A DNA stretch of 64,000 bases from Promethearchaeati archaeon SRVP18_Atabeyarchaeia-1 (GTDB lineage: Archaea; Asgardarchaeota; Atabeyarchaeia; Atabeyarchaeales; Atabeyarchaeaceae): positions 96,001-160,000 of the forward strand of contig CP147779.1 of NCBI GenBank assembly GCA_037308085.1, read 5' to 3'. Positions within the stretch are counted from its first letter, which is position 1. Each line of letters begins with the position of its first letter. Below, in pieces: positions 1,142 to 15,098 of this stretch. The notes beneath the pieces are model-generated. The model did no database searches, was not told the DNA's origin, and saw nothing but the letters and a program-made list of their open reading frames with translations. Both the position numbers and the translations under genes were made by a program.

Positions 1142-2311
1142 CTATTTCATGTTGTGTCCAATCAGCTCGAAGACAAAGAACTCTGTGTTGGGCACATAAG
1201 GTGCCATGAACTGCAGCACTATCTTATCACCATAGTAGGTCTGAGCCACTTTGGTATCGCTGTAAAGAAGCAGAGATAATACACTGCCGTCCCTGGAGCC
1301 ATTGGTTGAAATAAGATCGGCCGACACAAGACCACACTTGTGACAGAGACCATTCTTGTCGACAGCGTAAAGCAATGCCTGGTTGAGCCATGAGTGGCTA
1401 GCATTGTATCCCGCCGGGTGTTCGTACAACTCTAGTCTATATAGCCTGTGATCGGTCAGAGCTGGCGCAGTATTCAGATTATGGTAGACGGCGACATCGC
1501 TTTCTGGGGCAACCAAGTTGTGGATGTTGAGCAAGCCTTCGTCAGCATAAGCGCTACCGTTCCACACTAGAAGATTGGGACACCCACCGCCCGTAATAGG
1601 GGTGTTCTGGTAACACTTGAACTCGGTGTACTCTGTATATGAGGGAGTATAATACCAAGAGAACCACCCGTAAACCCCCCAGGTCGTCTTGAGAGTTATG
1701 GAGGCTATCAATGAATTATACTTCTGTACTCTAATCAATGTTGTGAAGATTAGGTTGTATTCCTTAGTTTTGTCGTTGAAATTGTAGTTCCATATGGCGG
1801 GAGCTCCCCAATTCAGTAGGAGCATGTTTGGATTAACCTGGATCCCTGGATACGTGACCGTGTTGGTAGCCGAGAATGTAGGGTTCGCACCTATCGTTGC
1901 TGTGATGCCGTACGAGTATGATCCGACGCTTGTCGTTGGCTGATAAGCAACAGCTGTGCAATAGCTGGACATATCAATTCTGACCTGACCTGAGGCTATC
2001 CGTCCTGTCCCTGTTCCTTGGTTCACAGATGGATTCATGTCCACACTAACGTAAACAGCGTAGTAGTCATAGCTGGGATCGCTAGAAGGGAGATAATCAA
2101 CCATCCACTGAAGGGCCATATGACCAACATAGTATGTTTGACTCGCCCACAGGAACCATTCGGTGTCATAGTAATCCCTTGGGAACCCGCCCGACATCGT
2201 GTTGCTTACCCACAGATTATAGTTTGTGTCAGCTCTAACTGTTGTTACTTCGAGTGCTGCCATGCTTGAGAACATTAGAAGAATTATTGCTGTAGCTACC
2301 GCTTTTCTCGT
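1142..2311 (-). CDS. Secreted beta-rich protein (~389 aa); central region resembles beta-pore-forming toxins; C-terminal 'GGGCPxLxVWNG' domain
   Basis: Signal peptide (M)RKAVATAIILLMFSSMAALEVTTVRA; Ser/Thr/Tyr-rich alternating strands; best start by context is ACG at 2311. Confidence 0.7.
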   Translation of the reverse strand, partial: TRKAVATAIILLMFSSMAALEVTTVRADTNYNLWVSNTMSGGFPRDYYDTEWFLWASQTYYVGHMALQWMVDYLPSSDPSYDYYAVYVSVDMNPSVNQGTGTGRIASGQVRIDMSSYCTAVAYQPTTSVGSYSYGITATIGANPTFSATNTVTYPGIQVNPNMLLLNWGAPAIWNYNFNDKTKEYNLIFTTLIRVQKYNSLIASITLKTTWGVYGWFSWYYTPSYTEYTEFKCYQNTPITGGGCPNLLVWNGSAYADEGLLNIHNLVAPESDVAVYHNLNTAPALTDHRLYRLELYEHPAGYNASHSWLNQALLYAVDKNGLCHKCGLVSADLISTNGSRDGSVLSLLLYSDTKVAQTYYGDKIVLQFMAPYVPNTEFFVFELIGHNMK

Positions 2312-2375
2312 TTTTCCTTCCCTCTCCTCTCTTAGTACGCGGATCTGTCCGCGCCCGAACCTCCTCTTTCTATTA

Positions 2376-2442
2376 GGATATATATAATCCTTGCGGTATA
2401 GCGGTATAACAGTAAAGTATAAGACAAAAGGCTTAAAATAGG
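2376..2442. promoter_or_regulatory. Divergent promoter region with GCGGTATA x2 direct repeat
   Basis: TATATATAA at ~2379-2387, TTAAAATA at ~2433-2440, GCGGTATA at 2393-2400 and 2401-2408. Confidence 0.5.
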
Positions 2443-2498
2443 GACAGATACGTAGACCACAACAAGGAAGAAAGCACCAGACAGGAGCCACCCGCACC

Positions 2499-2684
2499 TT
2501 GAGTAGAGTACATGAGACTATAGCGCACACTGGCAAGCAGAAGACATCGTTCACCGTCGATCAGGATCTCTGGAAGAAGTGGATCCTCTTTGTCGTGGAC
2601 AAACGTGGTTCTGCGCGCAAGCTGAGTCAGGAGCTTGAAGTAGCTATGAACGAGTACATGAGGAACCATAGGAGAGACAAGTAG
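2499..2684 (+). CDS. Ribbon-helix-helix (CopG-like) DNA-binding protein
   Basis: KQKTSFTVDQDLWKKW...SARKLSQELEVAMNEYM: beta strand followed by two helices. Confidence 0.75.
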   Translation: MSRVHETIAHTGKQKTSFTVDQDLWKKWILFVVDKRGSARKLSQELEVAMNEYMRNHRRDK

Positions 2685-2975
2685 GGACTCGAGCTATTCT
2701 GAGTCTGCCTTTCCTTCAATATCAGTGAGGGCTGGCAGCCTTTTCACGCCCCGATAAGAAAGAGGGCAGAAATTGTCTACTCCTTCTCAAAGAGCTACTC
2801 AGCAGCCGGCGACCGGGCAGTCACTAAGTTTTCTGACTGCAAACTTCATTTAACAATCTTGAATCTAATGTGTGTCCTGCCGGCGGGAAGTTGGAGATCA
2901 TTCTACCTTGTTCGGATTAGGAAATCCATTGAGTCCTGGTGAACTACCGATAATAGGCTTCGAGAGTCCTTGATT

Positions 2976-3476
2976 ATGGAAAAATATGACAAACAAGATC
3001 AGAGATTGATGGCAACTTGGGCTGCAGACTGTGCCGAAAGAGTACTTCCATTTTTTGAGAAGGCATATCCGAAGGATGATCGGCCCCGCAGAGCTATCGA
3101 GGCATGCAGAACGTGGGTTCGGACAGGCATGTTTAAGATGGCTGATATACGCGGAGCCTCTCTTGCAGCTCATGCCGCCGCCCGCGAAGCGAAAGAGAAT
3201 AGCGCAGCTTGTTTTGCTGCGCATGCCGCAGGTCAAGCGGTGGCAACTGCGCATGTTCCCGAACACGCCTTCGGCGCTGCTTATTATGCTCTTAAAGCCG
3301 TTGCGGCAGCTGACCCTGATAATGCCGAGGTTAAGATTGCCAAAGAACGACATTGGCAATCACGGCGTCCTCCAAAAAGCCTAAGGCAAGAAGTCCTAAA
3401 CAAGATAATAATCCAAAAACATGGCGACAGAATTCTCATCAAGATACGAAAAGGCAAGGATACTGAGGTACGATGA
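2976..3476 (+). CDS. Imm5-like putative immunity protein
   Basis: WAADCAERVLPFFE..P.DDRPRRAIEA..W...AAHAAAR...AAHAAGQAVATAHVPEHA.GAAYYA family signature. Confidence 0.8.
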   Translation: MEKYDKQDQRLMATWAADCAERVLPFFEKAYPKDDRPRRAIEACRTWVRTGMFKMADIRGASLAAHAAAREAKENSAACFAAHAAGQAVATAHVPEHAFGAAYYALKAVAAADPDNAEVKIAKERHWQSRRPPKSLRQEVLNKIIIQKHGDRILIKIRKGKDTEVR

Positions 3477-3851
3477 GCTCGAGAAATTCGTAACCATATC
3501 TTTAGAGAAGTTGCCTGACAAGGAAGACTTTCTCCCCACAGGAAAAAGCCGATACCAGGCTGCTGCCAGCGCACGCCTTGCCGAGGGGAAAAACCAAGCT
3601 CAGGAAAACTACTTGTGGTTCGGCGGTCTTCCCTAAGGAAGGAGAGACAAGGATTCTTGGAACCCAGATCCCCTGCCGAGTGTGTGATGCAGTTTCGCCA
3701 TACCTTGCAGACCGTGTCTCGGAAACCCCTTGATTTCAGCTTGGGGTAACCTACTAGTCTCCATATGATTGGAGCCATTGTGTCCTTGAAGAAGCTAAAA
3801 CCTGCAACCACATCCAAGCACGCGCCGAATCTGAATACTTCAGGTGACCCG

Positions 3852-4348
3852 TCAGCTATCCGGGAGACGACCGCGTCTCACCTTCCTTGTCAGTTTAGGC
3901 AGTGACTGCAATTCACTGCCGATTACGTGTACTCCGCAAGCCGGGCACGTCCCTTTGACATGCACCCACTCCAGGAAGTCATCCCGATGAGCAGCACCCC
4001 CGCAACTCGGGCAAGACGCAATCGAGTCGCCCCTATACAACTTCTTCCTGCATACAATGCACACACCAACCCCTCCCGCCCTTCATCTAGGGGCGTAGTG
4101 ACATCCTCGACTGCTTCCCCATCCTCAAATACCTTCGCCTCCCCCATCCTCACCTGCTCATTGATGAACCCAAGCAGGAACCCCACCCCAGAAAACAAAC
4201 CCAAACCACCAACGAGGAAAGCGAACACCTCCCCCCCGAATTTGCCCCTCACAACGGTAGGTGGGTAGCACACGACGACGAACAACCCGAACAGAACCAG
4301 CATGACTCCTGCAAAAAGAGGGAACAATCGAAGCGACCCATCACTCAC
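3852..4348 (-). pseudogene. Two-TM membrane-anchored RING-like zinc finger protein, frameshifted
   Basis: TM helices (ORF 3923-4495) join CIVC..CPSCG..AH...EW......CPAC (ORF 3852-4064) if one GT is removed from GGTGTGTGC at ~4060-4067. Confidence 0.7.
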
Positions 4349-5360: not shown

Positions 5361-5548
5361 TACCGTTTCTCCTCACTCTCCCCGCAAAGCCTGACCAAAT
5401 ACAACACGCATATCCTTCGTGTTCCTGAGTATAAATGTCATCGGTCTACAGCACAAGAAAGCCTTCCTGCCCGAAAAGGGGAAGCAGAAAACGATCCTTT
5501 CCAAAGACCTGTGCAGCCTTTTAATACTCCCACCCATGACACACTACC

Positions 5549-7315
5549 ATGTCCCAAACTCCACACACCAACACGCCACACAGCCACCCACAACCGCCAA
5601 CAAACATGCAACTGCAGATGCAGGAAGATCCAGACGAAACCATAAGGAATACTAGGAGTAAGAAAAGAGGAAGGAACAAGAAAGCAAGGGGCAAACCAAG
5701 AAAAGAGCTACCAATAGCAGGAAGTGAGCTATTCGCGAAATGGAAGGCTGGGAGATCAGCAGGAGACCTCTCAAAGGAATATGGCGTAAGCCCCGGAACA
5801 ATCCGGAACCGGTTAAAGGAATGCGACAAGGAATCCTATGCTAGCATAGCTAGGAGCAGGAAACCTCCCAGAAGCAATGGGCGAAGAAGAGAACTGCCAA
5901 TACCTAACTCAGAACTCTACGAACAATGGAAGAATGGGGAATCAGCCGAAACCTTGGCAAGAAAGTACAGGGCCAGCCGCCAAACCATTTCGAGGAGACT
6001 AAGAGAGTACAATGAACAGGAATACGGCGAAATAGCCAAGAGAAAGATAGCCACTTCAATCGCTGAGCGGAGGAAGAATATTCCAGTAGCACCAGCTAAA
6101 CTCATGGATAGATGGAAGAGTGGTGAATCAGCAGGCAAACTCGCGCACCAATTCAATGTTAGCCGCTCAACCATCACCAAAATACTGGAGAAGTACGGTG
6201 ACAATGACTACCGGCGAATGGCTAAGGAGAGAATGACCAGAGGAAAAGCGAAAGAAATACCGATATCTGAAGCCTCCGACCGGTGGAAGAAAGGCGAAAG
6301 GATCAAGGACCTCGCAAAGAGGTACGGGGTTAGCTTCGGAGCAGCTCGGAGGAAACTAATGGAGAACGACGAAAATGCGTACAGGGAGATAGCAAGGATC
6401 AACAGGGCAAGAAGAGGGAAGGAGAAACTTTCAGTATCAGACGTCAAACTGTTCCAGTTGTGGAAGAACGGCAAATCGACAAGAGCCCTAGCAAAGAAGT
6501 TAGGAGTAAGCCGTCAGACGATTTCGAGAAGACTAAAGGAGTATAATGCACAGGAATACAGTGAAGTGGCCAAGAAAAAAATCGCCGCGAAAATCTCTGA
6601 AATTGCGAAAGAGAAAAAGATCTCGATACCTACTGATGAGTTGTCGAAGCTGTGGGAGAACGGGAAGTCAACAGCGACTCTGGCAAGAGAGAACAAAGTA
6701 AGTCGACAAACCATATCAAGGATACTAATCAAGCGGAACAGAGCGGAGTATCAAACAATAGCCAAGCACAGAATAATCACTGCAAGGACGAAAGAACTAC
6801 TGATACCAATGCCTGAACTTTTCGACCGATGGGAAAACGGAGAATCACCAGAAAAACTCGAAAAAGAATGCGGAATAAGCTACAGACAAATCCTGAACAA
6901 ACTGAGAGCATATGACAAAGACAGGTACAAGAAGAACGCCGAAAGAAGAGGACTAGGTTCCATCAGAGCAAAGAATTGTGGAGTCGACAGCCTATTCGAA
7001 CTGAACGTCGGAAGAATTCTGGAAAGACACGGCATCTTATCCAAGAGAACTACGCTGAAGTTCGGCAAACATAATTACCGCCCAGATTTCCTACTACTTG
7101 AACGCAACACAATAATCGAAGCAATGGGGCTTTCCTTCGACTGGTATTGGAGGCGCAACAAACAAAAGACAAGAGACTATCTCCACCACAAGTACAAAGT
7201 AGTCGCTGTAGTGCCCACCGGGCAAGTATACTGGAAAGCAAAGGGATATCTCAGCAGGAAAGTAAAGATACTCAAGTACGCGGAATTCGAGAGATTCGTG
7301 TCGACATGCCTATGA
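5549..7315 (+). CDS. Seven tandem HTH repeats fused to a C-terminal PD-(D/E)xK (Vsr/DUF559-like) nuclease
   Basis: Repeat 'L...W..G.S...LA....VSRQTI.R.L' with Trp at aa 65, 127, 189, 246, 305, 369, 428; C-terminal SLFE...YRPDF...IIEAMG...YW; start may be 5606 or 5618. Confidence 0.85.
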   Translation: MSQTPHTNTPHSHPQPPTNMQLQMQEDPDETIRNTRSKKRGRNKKARGKPRKELPIAGSELFAKWKAGRSAGDLSKEYGVSPGTIRNRLKECDKESYASIARSRKPPRSNGRRRELPIPNSELYEQWKNGESAETLARKYRASRQTISRRLREYNEQEYGEIAKRKIATSIAERRKNIPVAPAKLMDRWKSGESAGKLAHQFNVSRSTITKILEKYGDNDYRRMAKERMTRGKAKEIPISEASDRWKKGERIKDLAKRYGVSFGAARRKLMENDENAYREIARINRARRGKEKLSVSDVKLFQLWKNGKSTRALAKKLGVSRQTISRRLKEYNAQEYSEVAKKKIAAKISEIAKEKKISIPTDELSKLWENGKSTATLARENKVSRQTISRILIKRNRAEYQTIAKHRIITARTKELLIPMPELFDRWENGESPEKLEKECGISYRQILNKLRAYDKDRYKKNAERRGLGSIRAKNCGVDSLFELNVGRILERHGILSKRTTLKFGKHNYRPDFLLLERNTIIEAMGLSFDWYWRRNKQKTRDYLHHKYKVVAVVPTGQVYWKAKGYLSRKVKILKYAEFERFVSTCL

Positions 7316-7464
7316 AAGTTCCAACAGAAACACGCCTTTGCTCACAGAAAATGCCTATGCAGGGAGCAGTTTGCCCTAGAAACCTGTCTCGTCTTCAACT
7401 TCTGAATAGACACCTCCACAAGGAAGAGTGGAGGAGGATCGTCCTTCCGCCAACGACTTCCAAC

Positions 7465-9669
7465 TTACTCCTTCTCATAGTATTCCTCAGCAGTAGGTGG
7501 CCGCGGGTCCAGTCCCCTACGCTTCCTGATCTGGCCAACTATGTCAACCTGCATGCTCTCAGGCACGGGCTGCCAGTGGCTGAATTGTGAGGCCCAAAAA
7601 GCTCTGCCCTCCGTCGCTGATCGCAGTTCCTCTGCCAGCCCGAAACTCTCCGCTACAGGCAGGTTGGCTTTGACGATCATCATCTCTTCTTCGGTTGGGA
7701 TATCTATAACGCGACCGCGCCGCCTCTGAACGATAGAGATGACGTTACTAACAAAATCTGACGGCACCTTACACTCAAACGTCATAATCGGCTCCAGGAG
7801 CTTGGGATCAGACAGGAGGAAACAACACCAAATCGGTCTCCAAGTCATTGGCAATATTTGTGCAGGTCCCCTGTGCACAGGGTCTTCGTGCAACTCTAGG
7901 TCTGTGATGTTTACTTTGAGTCCGTAGGCGTGTTCTTTGGTTAGGACGCTGTCGTCTACGGCGTCTCTGAAGCCTGCTTTGACTTGTTCTATGACTTCGT
8001 CTACGTATTGTCTTCCTTTGACTTTGTTGACTAGGATGTTGGTGTCTTCTACTGCTACTACGTTGCGGCTGTCTTCGGTTGGCCAGTGGTACTGGTTTTT
8101 GAGTATTTGGTGGCGTTCGTCTTTAGATTGCATGTCGGTTAGTTTTTCTTCTTTTATTGCTTGTATGATTTCTTCTGGTAGTTTTTCGAGTGTTACCCAG
8201 CATCTGTTGTGCTTGTTTGGTGATTTGCCGAGTATGGGTCTTCCTTCGTAGTTTTTGGTTATGGTTTCTCTGTAGATGACTATGGGTTTGCTGGTTTTGA
8301 CTTTTAGTCCTGCTTCTTGCATGCGGTAGGCTGTGACTTCGAGGTGTAGTTCGCCCATTCCGCTGAGGAGGTATTCTCCTGATTCCTTGTTTATGATGAA
8401 TCGGAGGTTGGGGTCTTCGAGTGTTAGTTTATGGATTACTTTCTCGAATTTTGGTAGGTCTTTGACGTCCACGGGTTCGACTGCTACTGTGACGACTGGG
8501 TCTGAGACGTATCGTAGGCCTTCGAAGGGTTGGGTTTCTTGGCCTTGTTCCGCGATTGTTTCGCCTACTCGGATGCCTTGGATGCCGGCGATGGCGGCTA
8601 TGTTTCCTGCTGGGATTTTGTCGACTATGACTCTGTCTGCTGCCATGGACATGTAGACTTGCTGTATTGTTCCGTCTCCGTGGTAGGTGACGAGCCTGAT
8701 TGGTTTTCCTTTTTCGACGGTGCCGCTGAAGACTCTTCCGATGGCTATGACGCCGCGTTGTGGGTCTACTTCGATTGTGGATACGCACATGAGGAGTGGG
8801 CCGTTGGGGTCGACGGCTGAGACTGATTTGCCGAGTTCGCTGTTTGGGTCGCCTGGCCAGATTACGGGGGCTCTGTAGGATTGGGCTTCGACTGGGTTTG
8901 GTAGGTGTTGGATGAACATGTCTAGGACGGTTTCGTATAGGGGTGCGTGCTTGGATAGTTCTTCGAGGTTTCCGCCTTCTTGGTGGGCGGCGAGTATTTC
9001 ATTGAAGGTTACTCCTCTTGCCTGCATGTGGGGGTAGTTTGTTCCCCACTTGTGGAGTGCTGCGCCGAAGGCGACTCTTCCGTCTTCGACTGATACTTGC
9101 CAGTCTTTCTTGTGCTCTGCGGGTGCGTATTTCTCGATGAGTCCGTTTGCTTTCTTTATGATTTTGGCGAACTTTTCCTGGATGGATGTGGAGGTTAGCC
9201 TGAGTTCCTTTATTAGTCGGTCGACTTTGTTTATGAAGAGGAGTGGCTTTACTCGTTCTCTTAGTGCCTGCATTAGGACGGTTTCGGTTTGGGTCATGGG
9301 GCCTTCTACTGCGTCGACTACGACGAGGGCTCCGTCGACTGCTCTGAGGGAGCGTGTGACTGCTCCTGAGAAGTCGATGTGTCCTGGTGTGTCTATGAGG
9401 TTGACTAGGTATTCGACGCCCTTGTAGGTGTGGGCGAGGGATACGTTGCTTGCGAATACGGTCATTTGCCGCTTCTGTTCGAGTTCCCATGAGTCCAGGA
9501 AGAGCTTTTTGCCGGCTGTCTCCTCGCTGATTATTCCGGCTGCGGCGAGTAGGCTGTCGGATAGGGTGGTCTTGCCGTGGTCTACGTGGGCTATGATGCT
9601 TGTGTTTCTGATCCTCTGTCTCTCATTCATCAGTTTCACTATTTCGTCCACTTGCTTGTATCTTCCCAA
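7465..9669 (-). CDS. fusA: Archaeal elongation factor EF-2, possibly a second paralog
   Basis: AHVDHGKTT, DTPGH, NKVD, GMGELHL, HEDPVHRG; TTG start with GGAGG; G2 is RQMT rather than RGIT. Confidence 0.95.
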   Translation of the reverse strand: MGRYKQVDEIVKLMNERQRIRNTSIIAHVDHGKTTLSDSLLAAAGIISEETAGKKLFLDSWELEQKRQMTVFASNVSLAHTYKGVEYLVNLIDTPGHIDFSGAVTRSLRAVDGALVVVDAVEGPMTQTETVLMQALRERVKPLLFINKVDRLIKELRLTSTSIQEKFAKIIKKANGLIEKYAPAEHKKDWQVSVEDGRVAFGAALHKWGTNYPHMQARGVTFNEILAAHQEGGNLEELSKHAPLYETVLDMFIQHLPNPVEAQSYRAPVIWPGDPNSELGKSVSAVDPNGPLLMCVSTIEVDPQRGVIAIGRVFSGTVEKGKPIRLVTYHGDGTIQQVYMSMAADRVIVDKIPAGNIAAIAGIQGIRVGETIAEQGQETQPFEGLRYVSDPVVTVAVEPVDVKDLPKFEKVIHKLTLEDPNLRFIINKESGEYLLSGMGELHLEVTAYRMQEAGLKVKTSKPIVIYRETITKNYEGRPILGKSPNKHNRCWVTLEKLPEEIIQAIKEEKLTDMQSKDERHQILKNQYHWPTEDSRNVVAVEDTNILVNKVKGRQYVDEVIEQVKAGFRDAVDDSVLTKEHAYGLKVNITDLELHEDPVHRGPAQILPMTWRPIWCCFLLSDPKLLEPIMTFECKVPSDFVSNVISIVQRRRGRVIDIPTEEEMMIVKANLPVAESFGLAEELRSATEGRAFWASQFSHWQPVPESMQVDIVGQIRKRRGLDPRPPTAEEYYEKE

Positions 9670-13469: not shown

Positions 13470-14657
13470 TCAGTCCGCCCTGTCACATGCCTTCGCTCCG
13501 CCGTTCTTCTTCATCATTCCTCCCCTTCTCTTCTTTTCCACCTCCACCTTAAGCCTCTCCACCTCGTCTCGCGGTACCACCAAGTACCTATGCTTACTTC
13601 CTCTGCCTTCCTCCACGAGGCTAGCCTGAACCTTGCCCTCACAATGCCAGCGGGATAGCGTACCACGGGGAATCGCTAGCGTTTTCGCTACCTCCGCGAA
13701 TTCCATACCCTTATTCTTGATCCGCGCAACCTCCTTCGCCCTCCTAACAAGATCTTTCTCAAGCCTGTCCAGTTCATCAGCAGGAATAAGATAGCGATCA
13801 TGAAGAGCCTCAGCGCTATCGCAGCTTCTCACACCAACACGCCTGACGCAACCTATCTTACACCACTTGATAACAGTTGTAGAACTCAACCCCAACCTGC
13901 CAGCAACCTCACGCGGTGTAAGAAACTCCGACCGCCAACTCTCCAACTTCGCCCGAATTCGCTCAACCTGCTGCAATCCGTTGGCAACCTTCCACGAAAA
14001 CCGAGATATTCCACCGCGAACTAGAGCATCCCTACCAAAAGACAAGATTGAAACCGTCCTCCCACCACGACGACTAATGCTAACACTTGCACCCCCGGCA
14101 ACCAACCTGTTAGTATAGTCGGAAATGAAGTCGACTAAGAACGGGAACGTGGTCTGACTGAAACTCCATTCCACTTTCAGCCAACCAAAGATGGATCTCC
14201 TCAGACCATCTAACTTGGCAGTCACATTTCCATCCCCATCAATTAGACCCGCAATGAATGGGATCTCCAACCCCTTGCTTATCATCCACCTCAGACCCGC
14301 ATGGCTATCCAAGGACGTAACCGCAGTCTTATCACAAAAGAAAGAAATGACGTTCACACCAGTTGACCACACCTCTATCGCGCGACCTCGCCTTATGGAA
14401 TACATGTGAGGAATGAGCCCAGCACGCTTAAGCATCTCAAAAACCCTACTGGCAATCACCTTCTCATTTCCCTGCAAGCTAAACCCAACTATCTGCGTGG
14501 ACACACCCTGTCTTTTCTTCAGGTAACCATCGGCAAAGTACAAGCCAAGAAGGTAAGCCCTCTCCTCACCCGAGAGAATATCAACGTTCATTGCAAGTCT
14601 GTAATGAGAACGTTTGGTCGCGTCCGAAATGCCAAAGTAATCATTATCATTAGTCAT
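13470..14657 (-). CDS. Free-standing double-motif LAGLIDADG endonuclease with two C-terminal MerR/Xis-like HTH domains
   Basis: AYLLGLYFADG and FIAGLIDGDG; FLTPREVAGRLGLSSTTVIKW and MEFAEVAKTLAIPRGTLSRW. Confidence 0.85.
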   Translation of the reverse strand: MTNDNDYFGISDATKRSHYRLAMNVDILSGEERAYLLGLYFADGYLKKRQGVSTQIVGFSLQGNEKVIASRVFEMLKRAGLIPHMYSIRRGRAIEVWSTGVNVISFFCDKTAVTSLDSHAGLRWMISKGLEIPFIAGLIDGDGNVTAKLDGLRRSIFGWLKVEWSFSQTTFPFLVDFISDYTNRLVAGGASVSISRRGGRTVSILSFGRDALVRGGISRFSWKVANGLQQVERIRAKLESWRSEFLTPREVAGRLGLSSTTVIKWCKIGCVRRVGVRSCDSAEALHDRYLIPADELDRLEKDLVRRAKEVARIKNKGMEFAEVAKTLAIPRGTLSRWHCEGKVQASLVEEGRGSKHRYLVVPRDEVERLKVEVEKKRRGGMMKKNGGAKACDRAD

Positions 14658-15098
14658 GTCAAAGCATCTCCGCCAGGAGAGAAGAGTGATTTGACCCAAC
14701 AATACAAGGCGACCCCACCGAGCCTAACCAGAGAGGAGCAAGAGGAAAAGAGCAACGTGGACCAGCGTGCAACCCAATCTGAACATATCCTACCTTTTCT
14801 TTCAGTATGAAGACCACGGAGGCTGAACCAAAACTCATAAGCATAACGACCCAGTAACAGGTTAACCGCGAGGCTATAAGAACCCACGTCAACATTGAAA
14901 AACAAGAAGACGCACCACAAGACAAGGATCATTCACTGACCACCACAGGTGGGCTTCATATCGTCTGAAAAGGTGGTTCATATACATGTCCACAAAGACC
15001 CAGACAATACTAGAAAAGACAAGAAATAAACCGACTAGATCTACAAAACGAGGAAAAAGACTTTGATAGCCCATTGAATAACTCAAAAGCCCGTTCAA
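14654..15098 (-). pseudogene. Degraded membrane protein gene fragments
   Basis: Two overlapping hydrophobic ORFs joinable by removing 1 nt near 14932. Confidence 0.35.

What the first reader, a model, noticed from the sequence alone, without database searches (positions are those of the whole stretch)
5549..7315. Seven-HTH array fused to a PD-(D/E)xK nuclease: a natural modular site-specific nuclease?
Seen: seven 57-64-aa repeats with a conserved scaffold but variable recognition helices (SPGTIRNR, SRQTISRR, SRSTITKI, SFGAARRK, SRQTISRR, SRQTISRI, SYRQILNK), each followed by a basic helix, then an intact-looking SxxE...PDF...IExxG..YW nuclease. It is free-standing, convergent with EF-2 and borders an accessory island. 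Inference: the layout parallels TALE- or zinc-finger nucleases and modular homing endonucleases. Three near-identical helices suggest a repeated sub-site and possibly a readable code.
Basis: partly seen in the sequence, partly recalled or inferred. Interest (0 to 1): 0.75.

Follow-up and report, generated by a model that had tools for sequence, protein, structure and literature searches.

The report
Mobile seven-HTH nuclease gene in Asgard
This Asgard archaeal gene encodes seven tandem DNA-binding helix-turn-helix units fused to a phage-T7-endonuclease-I-like cutting domain, and its small family behaves like a selfish, mobile "homing-type" nuclease gene that comes and goes between conserved genes, here at a recombination hotspot at the end of an EF-2 gene.

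Summary
ORF 5549-7315 (+) encodes 588 aa: a disordered basic N-terminus, seven HTH repeats spaced 57-64 aa apart, and a C-terminal PD-(D/E)xK nuclease domain. The domain model has pLDDT 90. A family profile hits T7 endonuclease I at E=1e-8. The closest folds are I-Bth0305I, Vsr and Bax1.

The family is tiny: 37 representatives among 1.84 billion proteins, with strong hits only in the three Atabeyarchaeia genomes out of 301 Asgard genomes searched. HTH number ranges from 0 to 7 and grows by internal duplication. S481, E484, D513, E524, G527, Y533 and K540 are invariant, but the canonical lysine (T7 endo I K67) is always missing.

The family looks mobile. Two G000 paralogs are 1.6-1.9 kb single-gene insertions where relatives have 75-80 bp spacers. 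Many copies are decayed. I found no terminal repeats, integrase or conserved partner gene. In five loci from at least four lineages, family genes or remnants lie at the 3' end of an EF-2 paralog. That end carries displaced 3' fragments and a fixed codon-composition switch.

Best reading (0.55): a free-standing homing-type nuclease. Specific cleavage, its target and any "readable code" are untested. Other first-reader notes of this scan flagged the same stretch and neighbouring features.

The parts
5521..5528 (+). TATA-like box (TTTAATAC) about 25 nt upstream of ATG 5549. It suggests a leaderless transcript and supports the 588-aa start.
   Evidence: Read directly from the sequence. The promoter function is inferred, not tested.
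5549..7315 (+). Whole ORF, 588 aa: basic N-terminus, seven HTH repeats and a T7-endonuclease-I-like nuclease domain.
   Evidence: The identical protein was recovered in three independent assemblies.
5549..5698 (+). Residues 1-50: low-complexity, Lys/Arg-rich segment predicted to be disordered. Possibly a non-specific DNA-binding arm.
   Evidence: pLDDT below 50 for residues 1-50. No Pfam match. The basic stretch is conserved in P0003.
5705..5890 (+). HTH repeat 1 (aa 53-114), recognition helix SPGTIRNR.
   Evidence: Positional ortholog of P0003 repeat 1.
5891..6076 (+). HTH repeat 2 (aa 115-176), recognition helix SRQTISRR.
   Evidence: 64% identical to repeat 5.
6077..6247 (+). HTH repeat 3 (aa 177-233), recognition helix SRSTITKI.
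   Evidence: Groups with repeat 6 in the repeat tree.
6248..6424 (+). HTH repeat 4 (aa 234-292), recognition helix SFGAARRK.
6425..6616 (+). HTH repeat 5 (aa 293-356), recognition helix SRQTISRR. It gives the best-scoring HTH match in Pfam.
6617..6793 (+). HTH repeat 6 (aa 357-415), recognition helix SRQTISRI.
6794..6970 (+). HTH repeat 7 (aa 416-474), recognition helix SYRQILNK. Conserved as the last repeat in P0003 and P0032.
6971..7312 (+). PD-(D/E)xK nuclease domain (aa 475-588), T7-endonuclease-I-like. Invariant residues are S481, E484 (6998-7000), D513 (7085-7087), E524 (7118-7120), G527, Y533 and K540 (7166-7168). M526 occupies the position of T7 endo I K67.
7312..7338 (+). Remainder of the family's conserved C-terminal tail (reads MKVPTETRL), now out of frame after a 1-nt shift that creates the TGA at 7313-7315.
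   Evidence: Relatives read SL.K(V/A)P.K.RF in frame. Window sequence.
3412..3633 (+). Remnant of the 3' end plus tail of another, diverged family member, fused behind the Imm5-like gene (2970-3476).
Evidence: E=1.8e-10 against a C-end/tail profile in a whole-genome six-frame search.
7465..7896 (-). Last 143 codons of the convergent EF-2 paralog. Third-position A+C drops from 0.92 to 0.40 here. This is a candidate exchanged (co-converted) segment and insertion hotspot.
   Evidence: The change point is identical in G000, G002 and L018. Displaced copies of the last 19-41 codons occur in relatives.

Best explanation
The gene belongs to a small, essentially Atabeyarchaeia-centred (Asgard) family of free-standing, selfish nuclease genes of the homing-endonuclease type. 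Proposed mechanism: the seven tri-helical HTH units, each followed by a basic helical linker, bind side by side along a long asymmetric DNA site, likely 50 bp or more. The C-terminal T7-endonuclease-I-like PD-(D/E)xK domain then cuts nearby using E484, D513 and E524, with invariant K540 possibly replacing the missing canonical Lys. Repair of the break from a gene-carrying allele copies the gene, and sometimes neighbouring cargo, into the cut locus. For this subfamily the target would lie in or next to the 3' end of the EF-2 paralog. Shown: the architecture, the fold, the sequence relationship, the invariant residues, variable repeat number through internal duplication, single-gene presence/absence at conserved loci, frequent decay, and recurrent association with a rearranging EF-2 3' end. 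Inferred: sequence-specific binding, cleavage, homing by break repair, and the location of the target.
For: Architecture: seven HTH repeats. The full-length model has pLDDT 84 and shows three helices plus a linker helix per repeat.

Nuclease domain: the model has pLDDT 89.9. The family profile hits T7 endonuclease I at E=1e-8, Bax1 at 7e-6 to 2e-4, and I-Bth0305I at 0.014. All specific fold hits are PD-(D/E)xK nucleases, including I-Bth0305I at Z 8.7 (rmsd 2.5 A over 86 residues) and Vsr at Z 8.3. An atlas structure search recovers a viral Phage_endo_I cluster at TM 0.73/0.69. S, E, D, E, G, Y and K are invariant across 22 diverse members, which argues for a maintained active site.

Mobility: in G000 the paralogs at 992 kb and 1242 kb sit in 1.9 and 1.6 kb inserts between genes that are only 77-80 and 75 bp apart in G001 and G002. 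The site occupied in G001 holds an unrelated gene in G000. The syntenic counterpart of the window gene in the same-genus genome G001 is a decayed stub. Many metagenomic relatives are fragments with mutated motifs. Within G000 every other HTH-type copy is broken, by a TAA stop, by a frameshift or as a fragment. No conserved partner gene was seen, and no integrase lies in the adjacent cassettes.

Distribution: 37 representatives in 1.84e9 proteins. Strong hits occur only in family f1 out of 301 Asgard genomes.

EF-2 hotspot: family genes or remnants lie convergent with EF-2, or with a displaced EF-2 3' fragment, in G000, G001, G002, L018 and L017. The EF-2 codon-composition switch is fixed at 142-143 codons before the stop. 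G001's EF-2 contig breaks 17 codons past that point.

Precedent: I-Bth0305I combines N-terminal NUMOD/HTH modules with a Vsr-like PD-(D/E)xK domain and footprints about 60 bp (PMC3239194).
Against: No binding or cleavage data exist. The residue equivalent to T7 endo I K67 is never Lys in this family, and in T7 endo I mutating that Lys lowers cleavage at least 100-fold (PMC11833611), so the domain could be weak, a nickase or inactive. The insertion boundaries could not be defined at nucleotide level because the intergenic DNA is too diverged. Gain cannot therefore be formally separated from precise loss, although two outgroups share the short spacer. Paralogs within one genome are only 37-43% identical in the nuclease domain, so there has been no recent intragenomic spread. 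The EF-2 composition switch is at the same codon in all lineages. It could therefore be one ancient event, or the work of an unidentified site-specific recombinase, rather than repeated nuclease-driven exchange. This copy has lost its C-terminal tail. No family member was found in the phage or plasmid collections.
Confidence: 0.55

Rival explanations
1. A host DNA-binding protein (a regulator, chromatin organiser or recombination/repair factor). Its tandem HTH array coats or bridges DNA as Cbp1 does on CRISPR repeats. Its T7-endo-I-like domain would be catalytically dead and used for oligomerisation, or would be a structure-specific (junction or flap) nuclease like T7 endo I and Bax1 rather than a sequence-specific cutter.
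For: The canonical Lys is missing family-wide, and it is important in T7 endo I. The closest sequence relatives, T7 endo I and Bax1, are structure-specific nucleases. A weak NCBIfam match to the multi-HTH Cbp1 protein gives 54 bits over three stretches. Sources annotate relatives as regulators. A related subfamily with a different N-domain (the 449-kb type) is conserved across several Asgard families like an ordinary host gene.
Against: Invariant E, D and E plus S, G, Y and K across 24-66% identical members point to a maintained catalytic site. The HTH-array members are dispensable and patchy: absent from orthologous sites in close relatives, and decayed in G001 and in most G000 copies. That pattern is unusual for a regulator or repair factor. 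The Cbp1 score is far below its cutoff of 140.
Confidence: 0.2
2. A stand-alone defence or conflict nuclease (restriction-like or toxin-like) housed in a defence/accessory island. It would use the HTH array to recognise invader DNA and would turn over rapidly under arms-race selection.
For: The neighbours in different lineages are conflict-type genes. These are an Imm5-like immunity protein and RING proteins in the window, HEPN and HicAB modules, and TnpB with AAA_15/AAA_21 ATPases. The family shows rapid diversification, variable repeat number and frequent loss. The HTH-less relative P0030 weakly matches PADLOC candidate PDC-S68 at 3.5e-6.
Against: No PADLOC model matches the nuclease domain of this protein. 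No methylase, immunity gene or other conserved partner was found. Two paralogs sit alone between housekeeping genes, not in islands. A seven-HTH array implies a very long site, which suits a unique genomic target better than broad invader recognition (inference).
Confidence: 0.15
3. The transposase of a minimal insertion-sequence-like element, using a PD-(D/E)xK nuclease as TnsA or the Rpn proteins do.
For: Single-gene insertions of 1.6-1.9 kb lie in short intergenic spacers. One relative is annotated 'transposase-like' by its source. The HTH type is shared with IS630 and IS481 transposase N-termini, seen as weak NCBIfam matches.
Against: No terminal inverted repeats or target-site duplications were found in the inserted segments. 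There are no near-identical copies within a genome. The flanking non-coding DNA does not recur. A PD-(D/E)xK domain alone is not known to carry out strand transfer (general knowledge).
Confidence: 0.05

Closest known systems
Bacteriophage T7 endonuclease I (gene 3; Pfam PF05367 Phage_endo_I; PDB 1fzr, 1m0d, 2pfj)
   Same: It is the closest relative by sequence. The family profile hits it at E=1e-8 with SxxE, H.Y.PDF and E..G aligned. 17 of 22 members weakly match PF05367. The atlas structure match to a viral Phage_endo_I cluster is TM 0.73/0.69. The equivalents of E20, D55 and E65 are invariant.
   Different: K67 is replaced by a small or hydrophobic residue in every member. No member reaches the Pfam threshold. 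T7 endo I is a small stand-alone junction-resolving enzyme with no HTH array. The monomer model folds without domain swapping, whereas T7 endo I is a domain-swapped dimer (general knowledge).
I-Bth0305I and the 'EDxHD' homing endonuclease family (PDB 3r3p; PMC3239194)
   Same: Same design logic: N-terminal HTH-type DNA-binding modules plus a C-terminal PD-(D/E)xK (Vsr-like) domain, with a long (~60 bp) footprint and a selfish genetic lifestyle. It is one of the two best structural matches to the nuclease model, at Z 8.7 and rmsd 2.5 A over 86 residues.
   Different: The catalytic motif differs: EDxHD there, against E...PDF...E..G...K here. I-Bth0305I is intron-encoded in phage recA with two NUMOD modules. 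This family is free-standing, archaeal and carries up to seven HTH units. Sequence similarity is marginal (E=0.014).
Free-standing homing endonuclease genes of T4-like phages (Seg and Mob proteins; general knowledge, see also PMC10055350 and PMC3943268 listed)
   Same: Single genes inserted between conserved genes and present or absent between close relatives. They are thought to cut a conserved neighbouring gene and to be copied by repair, with co-conversion of flanks. Modular DNA-binding modules are attached to a nuclease domain.
   Different: Those enzymes are GIY-YIG or HNH nucleases in phage genomes. This family uses a T7-endo-I-like PD-(D/E)xK domain in cellular Asgard chromosomes. Cleavage and homing are demonstrated there and not here.
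Cbp1/Cbp2 CRISPR-repeat-binding proteins of Sulfolobales (NCBIfam NF040595; PMC3597662, PMC10883916)
   Same: Archaeal proteins built from tandem imperfect homeodomain-like HTH repeats that together read an extended DNA site (abstracts). The weak match is 54 bits over three stretches.
   Different: Cbp1 has three repeats and no nuclease domain. The score is far below the family cutoff of 140. The lineage (Thermoproteota) and role differ.
Bax1 nuclease of the archaeal XPB-Bax1 repair complex (Pfam DUF790; PDB 8gy8, 6p66, 6p4w)
   Same: An archaeal PD-(D/E)xK nuclease domain detectably related in sequence (E 7e-6 and 2e-4) and in fold (Z 7.8). 8 of 22 members weakly match DUF790.
   Different: Bax1 works with the XPB helicase and has other accessory domains. 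There is no HTH array, and no XPB gene lies next to this family.
Engineered or natural modular nucleases (FokI-based ZFNs and TALENs; I-TevI)
   Same: A repeat-built DNA-recognition module is tethered to a separate cleavage domain. FokI appears among the distant fold matches.
   Different: There is no evidence for a one-repeat-one-subsite code. The repeats are far more divergent than TALE repeats (25-55% identity), and variability is not limited to a few specificity residues.

Membership tests
PD-(D/E)xK nuclease superfamily | Core alpha-beta-beta-beta-alpha-beta fold | tested here: met
   The model has pLDDT 89.9 with the order H-E-E-E-E-H-E-H-E-H. Foldseek's top specific hits are all PD-(D/E)xK nucleases. 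VIA gives Z 8.7 to I-Bth0305I, 8.3 to Vsr and 7.8 to Bax1.
PD-(D/E)xK nuclease superfamily | Acidic metal ligands: Asp at the start of strand 2 and Asp/Glu on strand 3, plus a Glu on helix 1 | tested here: met
   E484, D513 (in PDF) and E524 are invariant in 22 members. They align with the SGLE, PDF and ETKG segments of T7 endo I.
PD-(D/E)xK nuclease superfamily | Lys two residues after the second acidic residue, as in (D/E)xK | tested here: not met
   The position is M526 here and A/M/T/V/G/F in all 22 members. The best PDB hit, 2pfj, reads ETAGL where the other T7 endo I chains read ETKGL. Invariant K540 on the next helix is a candidate substitute (inference).
T7 endonuclease I family (Pfam PF05367) | Score above the Pfam gathering threshold | tested here: not met
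   The window protein has no match. 17 of 22 members match only weakly, the best at E=6e-4.
T7 endonuclease I family (Pfam PF05367) | Significant sequence relationship to solved T7 endo I | tested here: met
   The profile of 22 members hits 2pfj_A at E=1e-8, 1m0d_A at 3e-7 and 1fzr_A at 6e-6.
T7 endonuclease I family (Pfam PF05367) | Domain-swapped homodimer with composite active sites; resolves four-way junctions | not testable with these tools
   Needs biochemistry or an experimental structure.
Homing endonuclease genes (functional class, free-standing type) | Presence/absence polymorphism of the gene at an otherwise conserved locus | tested here: met
   Two G000 paralogs lie in 1.6-1.9 kb inserts where G001 and G002 have 75-80 bp spacers. 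The window gene's counterpart in G001 is decayed.
Homing endonuclease genes (functional class, free-standing type) | Degeneration of copies (invasion-decay cycle) | tested here: met
   A TAA-interrupted copy, a frameshifted copy and fragments occur in G000. Truncated copies occur in G001 and G002. Many metagenomic representatives are fragments.
Homing endonuclease genes (functional class, free-standing type) | The enzyme cleaves the gene-less allele at or near the insertion site | not testable with these tools
   Needs cleavage assays on empty-site DNA.
Homing endonuclease genes (functional class, free-standing type) | Co-conversion of flanking host sequence | tested here: inconclusive
   The last 142-143 codons of EF-2 have a different codon composition, and displaced 3' fragments exist. 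The change point is identical in all lineages, so a single old event or another mechanism is not excluded.
EDxHD (I-Bth0305I) homing endonuclease family | Composite EDxHD catalytic motif shared with Vsr | tested here: not met
   The family's invariant residues are S, E, D, E, G, Y and K, with no conserved His-Asp pair at the Vsr positions. The motif definition is from PMC3239194. The fold is similar.
Cbp1 (NCBIfam NF040595) | Score above the equivalog cutoff of 140 bits | tested here: not met
   54.3 bits.
TALE/zinc-finger-like coded repeat arrays | Near-identical repeats in which a few specificity positions carry almost all the variation | tested here: not met
   Repeats are 25-55% identical. 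Across 86 repeats, entropy at recognition-helix positions 23-25 and 28 (2.9-3.4 bits) is matched by surface positions 5, 9, 14 and 15 (3.0-3.4 bits).
Insertion sequences / transposons | Terminal inverted repeats, target-site duplication, near-identical copies in the genome | tested here: not met
   No terminal repeats were found in three inserted segments. Paralogs are 37-43% identical. The flanks do not recur. Exact ends could not be mapped.

The most novel reading that the evidence does not exclude
This is a previously undescribed kind of archaeal mobile element. It would be a free-standing T7-endonuclease-I-like homing nuclease whose long, duplicating tandem-HTH array reads an extended site at the 3' end of an EF-2 paralog. 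Its repeated cutting and repair would drive serial accretion of unrelated cargo genes there, a nuclease-driven gene-capture hotspot. Because arrays evolve by adding, losing and diverging repeats, the family would be a natural, re-targetable modular nuclease system in the closest prokaryotic relatives of eukaryotes.
Probability: 0.25. Interest if true: 0.8.

Novelty: new variant of a known kind. Interest (0 to 1): 0.6.

Why it matters
If the protein is an active site-specific nuclease, it adds a new catalytic lineage (T7-endonuclease-I-like, lacking the canonical lysine) and a new recognition architecture (up to seven tandem HTH units) to the homing endonucleases. It would also be a documented selfish nuclease family in Asgard chromosomes, whose mobile elements are only beginning to be described; the main paper on this genome's elements does not mention the family (PMC11529989).

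The family offers a natural series of arrays with 0 to 7 repeats and clear repeat duplications. That series is a convenient system for asking how multi-HTH proteins build and change long DNA specificities.

The linked EF-2 3'-end hotspot may explain how an accessory island grows next to an essential-type gene. It shows fixed boundaries, displaced gene ends and different cargo in each lineage.

In practice, the family is inconsistently annotated in public data (Mor regulator, transposase-like, AraC-like, LysM, RecB-like nuclease), and that can now be corrected.

Tried and rejected
1. A single-sequence search of the C-domain against Pfam, NCBIfam and PDB found nothing useful. Only the 22-member profile revealed T7 endo I.

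2. Homodimer prediction of the nuclease domain (two copies, alignment A1) returned 'no answer' with scores of 0.04 and 0.01. I draw no conclusion either way.

3. A fold search with the full-length model found only nuclease-domain matches and no solved analogue of the whole architecture. phmmer of repeats 1-4 against PDB found nothing.

I replaced it with a profile search of 301 Asgard genomes.

5. No match in the phage or plasmid collections.

6. I looked for a displaced EF-2 3' end in G000 and for displaced 3' ends of the neighbours of the other two paralogs. None was found.

7. I tried to define the insertion boundaries by aligning filled and empty sites. Only the coding flanks align, and the shared G001/G002 spacer motif is absent from G000.

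8. No terminal inverted repeats or target duplications were found.

9. The 3'-end remnant at 3412-3633 is significant only at the protein level.

10. The Atabeyarchaeia MGE paper holds no text supplement, so I could not check whether this locus is among its 14 listed integrated elements.

11. Tandem Repeats Finder does not see the coding repeats, which are too diverged at 45-66% DNA identity.

12. I considered and rejected the idea that the stop or frameshift lesions are tRNA-type micro-introns, which earlier notes report in this genome. The window's tail shift is a single nucleotide and the 1242-kb copy has an in-frame TAA, neither of which leaves room for an intron. I did not test the 992-kb frameshift for an intron.
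Full report
OBSERVATION. The ORF at 5549-7315 (+) is real and encodes 588 aa. A conserved Trp recurs at residues 65, 127, 189, 246, 305, 369 and 428, which puts seven repeats in register with spacings of 57-64 aa. The repeats are 25-55% identical as protein and 45-66% identical as DNA. That is too diverged for Tandem Repeats Finder to detect. Pfam recognises them strongly as simple tri-helical HTH domains: HTH_28 at 4e-23, HTH_7 at 7e-22 and HTH_23 at 2e-21. The gene is convergent with an EF-2 gene (7465-9669, -) that lies 150 bp away, followed by hypF. A TATA-like box, TTTAATAC, at 5521-5528 sits about 25 nt before ATG 5549. This suggests a leaderless transcript (inference).

THE C-TERMINAL DOMAIN. 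On its own, the last ~130 aa matches nothing in Pfam, NCBIfam or PDB. An exhaustive phmmer search of 1.84 billion representative proteins found only 37 relatives. An alignment of 22 of them has seven invariant columns: S481, E484, D513, E524, G527, Y533 and K540. A profile of that alignment hits phage T7 endonuclease I at E=1e-8 (2pfj) and 3e-7 (1m0d). It hits the archaeal repair nuclease Bax1 at 7e-6 and 2e-4, and the homing endonuclease I-Bth0305I at 0.014. SxxE, H.Y.PDF and E..G align with the T7 enzyme's active-site segments.

The AlphaFold model built from the alignment is confident, with pLDDT 89.9 and pTM 0.82. Foldseek's leading specific matches are all PD-(D/E)xK nucleases: Can2, PspGI, Bax1, T7 endo I, I-Bth0305I, McrC and Vsr. 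The Foldseek-independent search ranks I-Bth0305I (Z 8.7, rmsd 2.5 A over 86 residues), BstEII, Can2, Vsr and Bax1 at the top. 17 of 22 members weakly match Pfam Phage_endo_I and 8 match DUF790 (Bax1), all below threshold. The ESM-atlas structure search independently returns a viral Phage_endo_I cluster at TM 0.73/0.69 over 119 residues.

There is one important deviation. The residue aligned with T7 endo I K67 is never Lys. It is Met here and A/M/T/V/G/F elsewhere in the family. The top PDB hit reads ETAGL where the other T7 endo I chains read ETKGL. In T7 endo I, mutation of Glu20, Asp55, Glu65 or Lys67 each lowers cleavage at least 100-fold (PMC11833611, summarising Declais et al. 2001). Catalysis here must therefore use a different arrangement, perhaps the invariant K540 on the following helix, or be attenuated. 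I could not measure distances in the model.

WHOLE-PROTEIN ANATOMY. The full-length model has pLDDT 84 and pTM 0.45. It shows residues 1-50 disordered; this stretch is Lys/Arg-rich. Seven units follow, each of three short helices running into a long basic linker helix, and then the nuclease domain. The moderate pTM means the units are individually well defined while their mutual arrangement is not. No solved structure resembles the whole.

THE FAMILY. Members carry 0, 1, 2, 3, 4, 5 or 7 HTH repeats, always N-terminal to the nuclease domain. The window protein ties with P0009 for the longest array. Across 86 repeats the hydrophobic scaffold is conserved (G10, L16, A17, T26, L27, L31, Y39, I42). 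The start of the recognition helix (positions 23-25 and 28) is highly variable, but several other surface positions are equally variable.

Within the window's subfamily the repeats show positional orthology. R1 and R7 correspond to the first and last repeats of P0003. R2-R3 and R5-R6 look like a duplicated two-repeat block. This accounts for the three near-identical recognition helices. Arrays therefore evolve by internal duplication, loss and divergence. This HTH subtype occurs in G000 only in the family's own three array-bearing loci.

Sources annotate relatives inconsistently: Mor regulator, transposase-like, AraC-like, LysM and RecB-like nuclease.

ORGANISM AND DISTRIBUTION. Earlier notes of this scan identify the genome as the Asgard archaeon Atabeyarchaeia-1. 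I did not verify that independently. The paper on this lineage's mobile elements does not mention the family (PMC11529989). In a profile search of 301 Asgard genomes, strong matches (E<1e-19) occur only in the three genomes of the window's own family. Weaker matches belong to other subfamilies. One of these, represented at 449 kb in G000, has a different conserved N-terminal domain and no HTH repeats. One metagenomic relative is labelled Njordarchaeota by its source. I found nothing in the phage or plasmid collections.

MOBILITY. G000 holds five C-domain loci plus two 3'-end remnants.

- The paralog at 992 kb lies in a 1.9-kb segment between an acyl-CoA-synthetase-like gene and the next gene. 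In G001 (same genus) and G002 those two genes are 80 and 77 bp apart.
- The paralog at 1242 kb lies in a 1.6-kb segment between a TldD/PmbA-like pair that is 75 bp apart in G002.
- Conversely, the slot that holds a family member in G001 holds an unrelated 313-aa ORF in G000.
- The syntenic counterpart of the window gene in G001 is a truncated stub.
- In G000 the 1242-kb copy has an in-frame TAA, the 992-kb copy is frameshifted near its end, and the others are fragments.
- Many metagenomic representatives are scrambled fragments with mutated motifs.

I found no terminal inverted repeats or target duplications and no recurrence of the non-coding flanks. No partner gene is conserved across contexts. 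There are no near-identical copies within a genome; the paralogs are 37-43% identical. This combination is the usual signature of free-standing homing endonuclease genes rather than of insertion sequences, regulators or restriction-modification systems. The exact protein and context recur in three independent assemblies. Contigs tend to break 1.2-2.6 kb upstream of the gene, which fits strain heterogeneity in the island to its left.

THE EF-2 3' END. To the right of the gene, EF-2 and HypF are syntenic with G002 at 87% and 73% identity. To the left, synteny is lost. G002 has a family member of a different subfamily (about 30% identical) on the same side of EF-2. A 407-aa ORF, a displaced copy of the last 41 EF-2 codons and a 712-aa ORF lie between them.

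An independent metagenome contig (L018) has EF-2, then a 264-aa ORF, then a displaced EF-2 3' fragment. After that come a 79-aa ORF, a HEPN gene and a decayed family remnant. These are followed by a RING-containing gene and a second displaced EF-2 fragment. In L017 a displaced EF-2 fragment abuts the 3' end of a family remnant and is followed by HicAB. In G001 the last 19 EF-2 codons lie on the same contig as the family stub, in convergent orientation. The four fragments found in the first screen begin at EF-2 residue 694-701. The G001 piece covers only the last 19 residues. None of the intervening cassettes encodes a recognisable integrase.

Following two earlier first-reader notes, I measured codon composition. 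Third positions of EF-2 are 90-94% A or C up to codon ~591 and 23-42% thereafter. The maximum-likelihood change point lies 142-143 codons before the stop in G000, G002 and L018. G001's EF-2 contig ends 17 codons past that point.

The EF-2 3' end is therefore a site of repeated, position-specific exchange, and the family is found there in five loci from at least four lineages. Within the window itself, a diverged family 3' end plus tail survives at 3412-3633, fused behind the Imm5-like gene (E=1.8e-10). A weaker one lies at 92.3 kb of G000. This suggests successive arrivals, with the oldest lying furthest from EF-2.

Whether the nuclease itself causes these events is an inference. It would parallel free-standing phage homing endonucleases, which cut a conserved neighbouring gene. 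A fixed change point shared by all lineages is equally compatible with one ancient event or with an unidentified recombinase.

MECHANISM PROPOSED. The HTH array binds a long asymmetric site. For comparison, Cbp1 is described as binding CRISPR DNA repeats with three such units (PMC3597662 abstract), and I-Bth0305I footprints about 60 bp with two modules as a dimer (PMC3239194). The nuclease domain cuts nearby, and break repair from a gene-bearing allele spreads the gene. I put this at 0.55.

The rivals are:
- a host DNA-binding or structure-specific factor with a dead or junction-specific domain (0.2);
- a stand-alone defence or conflict nuclease (0.15);
- a minimal transposase (0.05).

COMPARISON AND NOVELTY. 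The design principle, HTH-type modules plus a PD-(D/E)xK domain in a selfish gene, is known from I-Bth0305I. Tandem HTH arrays are known from Cbp1. T7-endo-I-like domains are known from phages and from Bax1. Three things are new here: the combination, the array length (up to seven units, with visible repeat turnover) and the lineage (Asgard chromosomes). The family-wide loss of the canonical lysine and the link to an EF-2 3'-end hotspot are also new. I class it as a new variant of a known kind.

The TALE-like 'readable code' is not supported by the sequence data. This copy is the most intact in its genome, but it has lost the conserved C-terminal tail through a 1-nt shift.

Noticed in passing
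window 7465-9669 (-), especially 7465-7896; also L012 10476-10598, L018 2245-2334 and 5593-5685, L017 1361-1429, G001 C170:1078-1134: The EF-2 paralog switches abruptly from 90-94% A/C to 23-42% A/C at third codon positions, 142-143 codons before the stop, at the same point in three lineages. Displaced copies of its last 19-41 codons flank different inserted cassettes in relatives. None of those cassettes has a recognisable integrase.
   Followed up: partly
window 13470-14702 (-): A 410-aa free-standing protein between the hyp genes, with LAGLIDADG_3 / Hom_end matches plus HTH_17 and HTH_23. It is a second homing-endonuclease-like gene within 7 kb of the first. It is also present in the independent assemblies L042 and L043.
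   Followed up: no
window 2970-3476 (+) and 1142-2554 (-): An Imm5-like putative immunity protein (PF21805, E=1.6e-43) lies next to a 470-aa ORF with no Pfam match. This may be a toxin-immunity pair in the variable island.
   Followed up: no
window 3852-4064 (-); L018 2468-3946 (-): A small RING-finger ORF (Prok-RING_1, zf-RING_2) lies upstream of and divergent from the nuclease gene. In L018, a beta-propeller-fn3 protein with a C-terminal RING finger occupies the equivalent position upstream of the family remnant. This suggests a partly conserved RING-nuclease gene pair.
   Followed up: partly
G000:C1:449619-450380 (L031); L035, L036: A related subfamily has the same nuclease domain but a different, well-conserved ~130-aa N-terminal domain and no HTH repeats. 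It is present in several Asgard families and behaves like a vertically inherited gene.
   Followed up: partly
L012 10745-12883 (+) in G002: A 712-aa ORF with no Pfam match forms a 2.55-kb single-gene insertion exactly at the EF-2 3' end, bounded by the displaced EF-2 fragment.
   Followed up: no
G000:C1:992470-993682 (-) and 1242049-1243107 (+): Both other array-bearing paralogs are damaged. The 992-kb copy's last ~25 residues continue in another frame, and the 1242-kb copy has an in-frame TAA inside the helix after strand 3. I did not examine whether the 992-kb shift could be a micro-intron.
   Followed up: partly
ESM atlas clusters: The same nuclease fold appears at the C-terminus of HEAT-repeat proteins of Verrucomicrobiota and Kiritimatiellota, and of DUF723 / treble-clef zinc-finger proteins of phages and Bacillota. 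This nuclease domain seems to be combined repeatedly with different repeat or DNA-binding modules.
   Followed up: no
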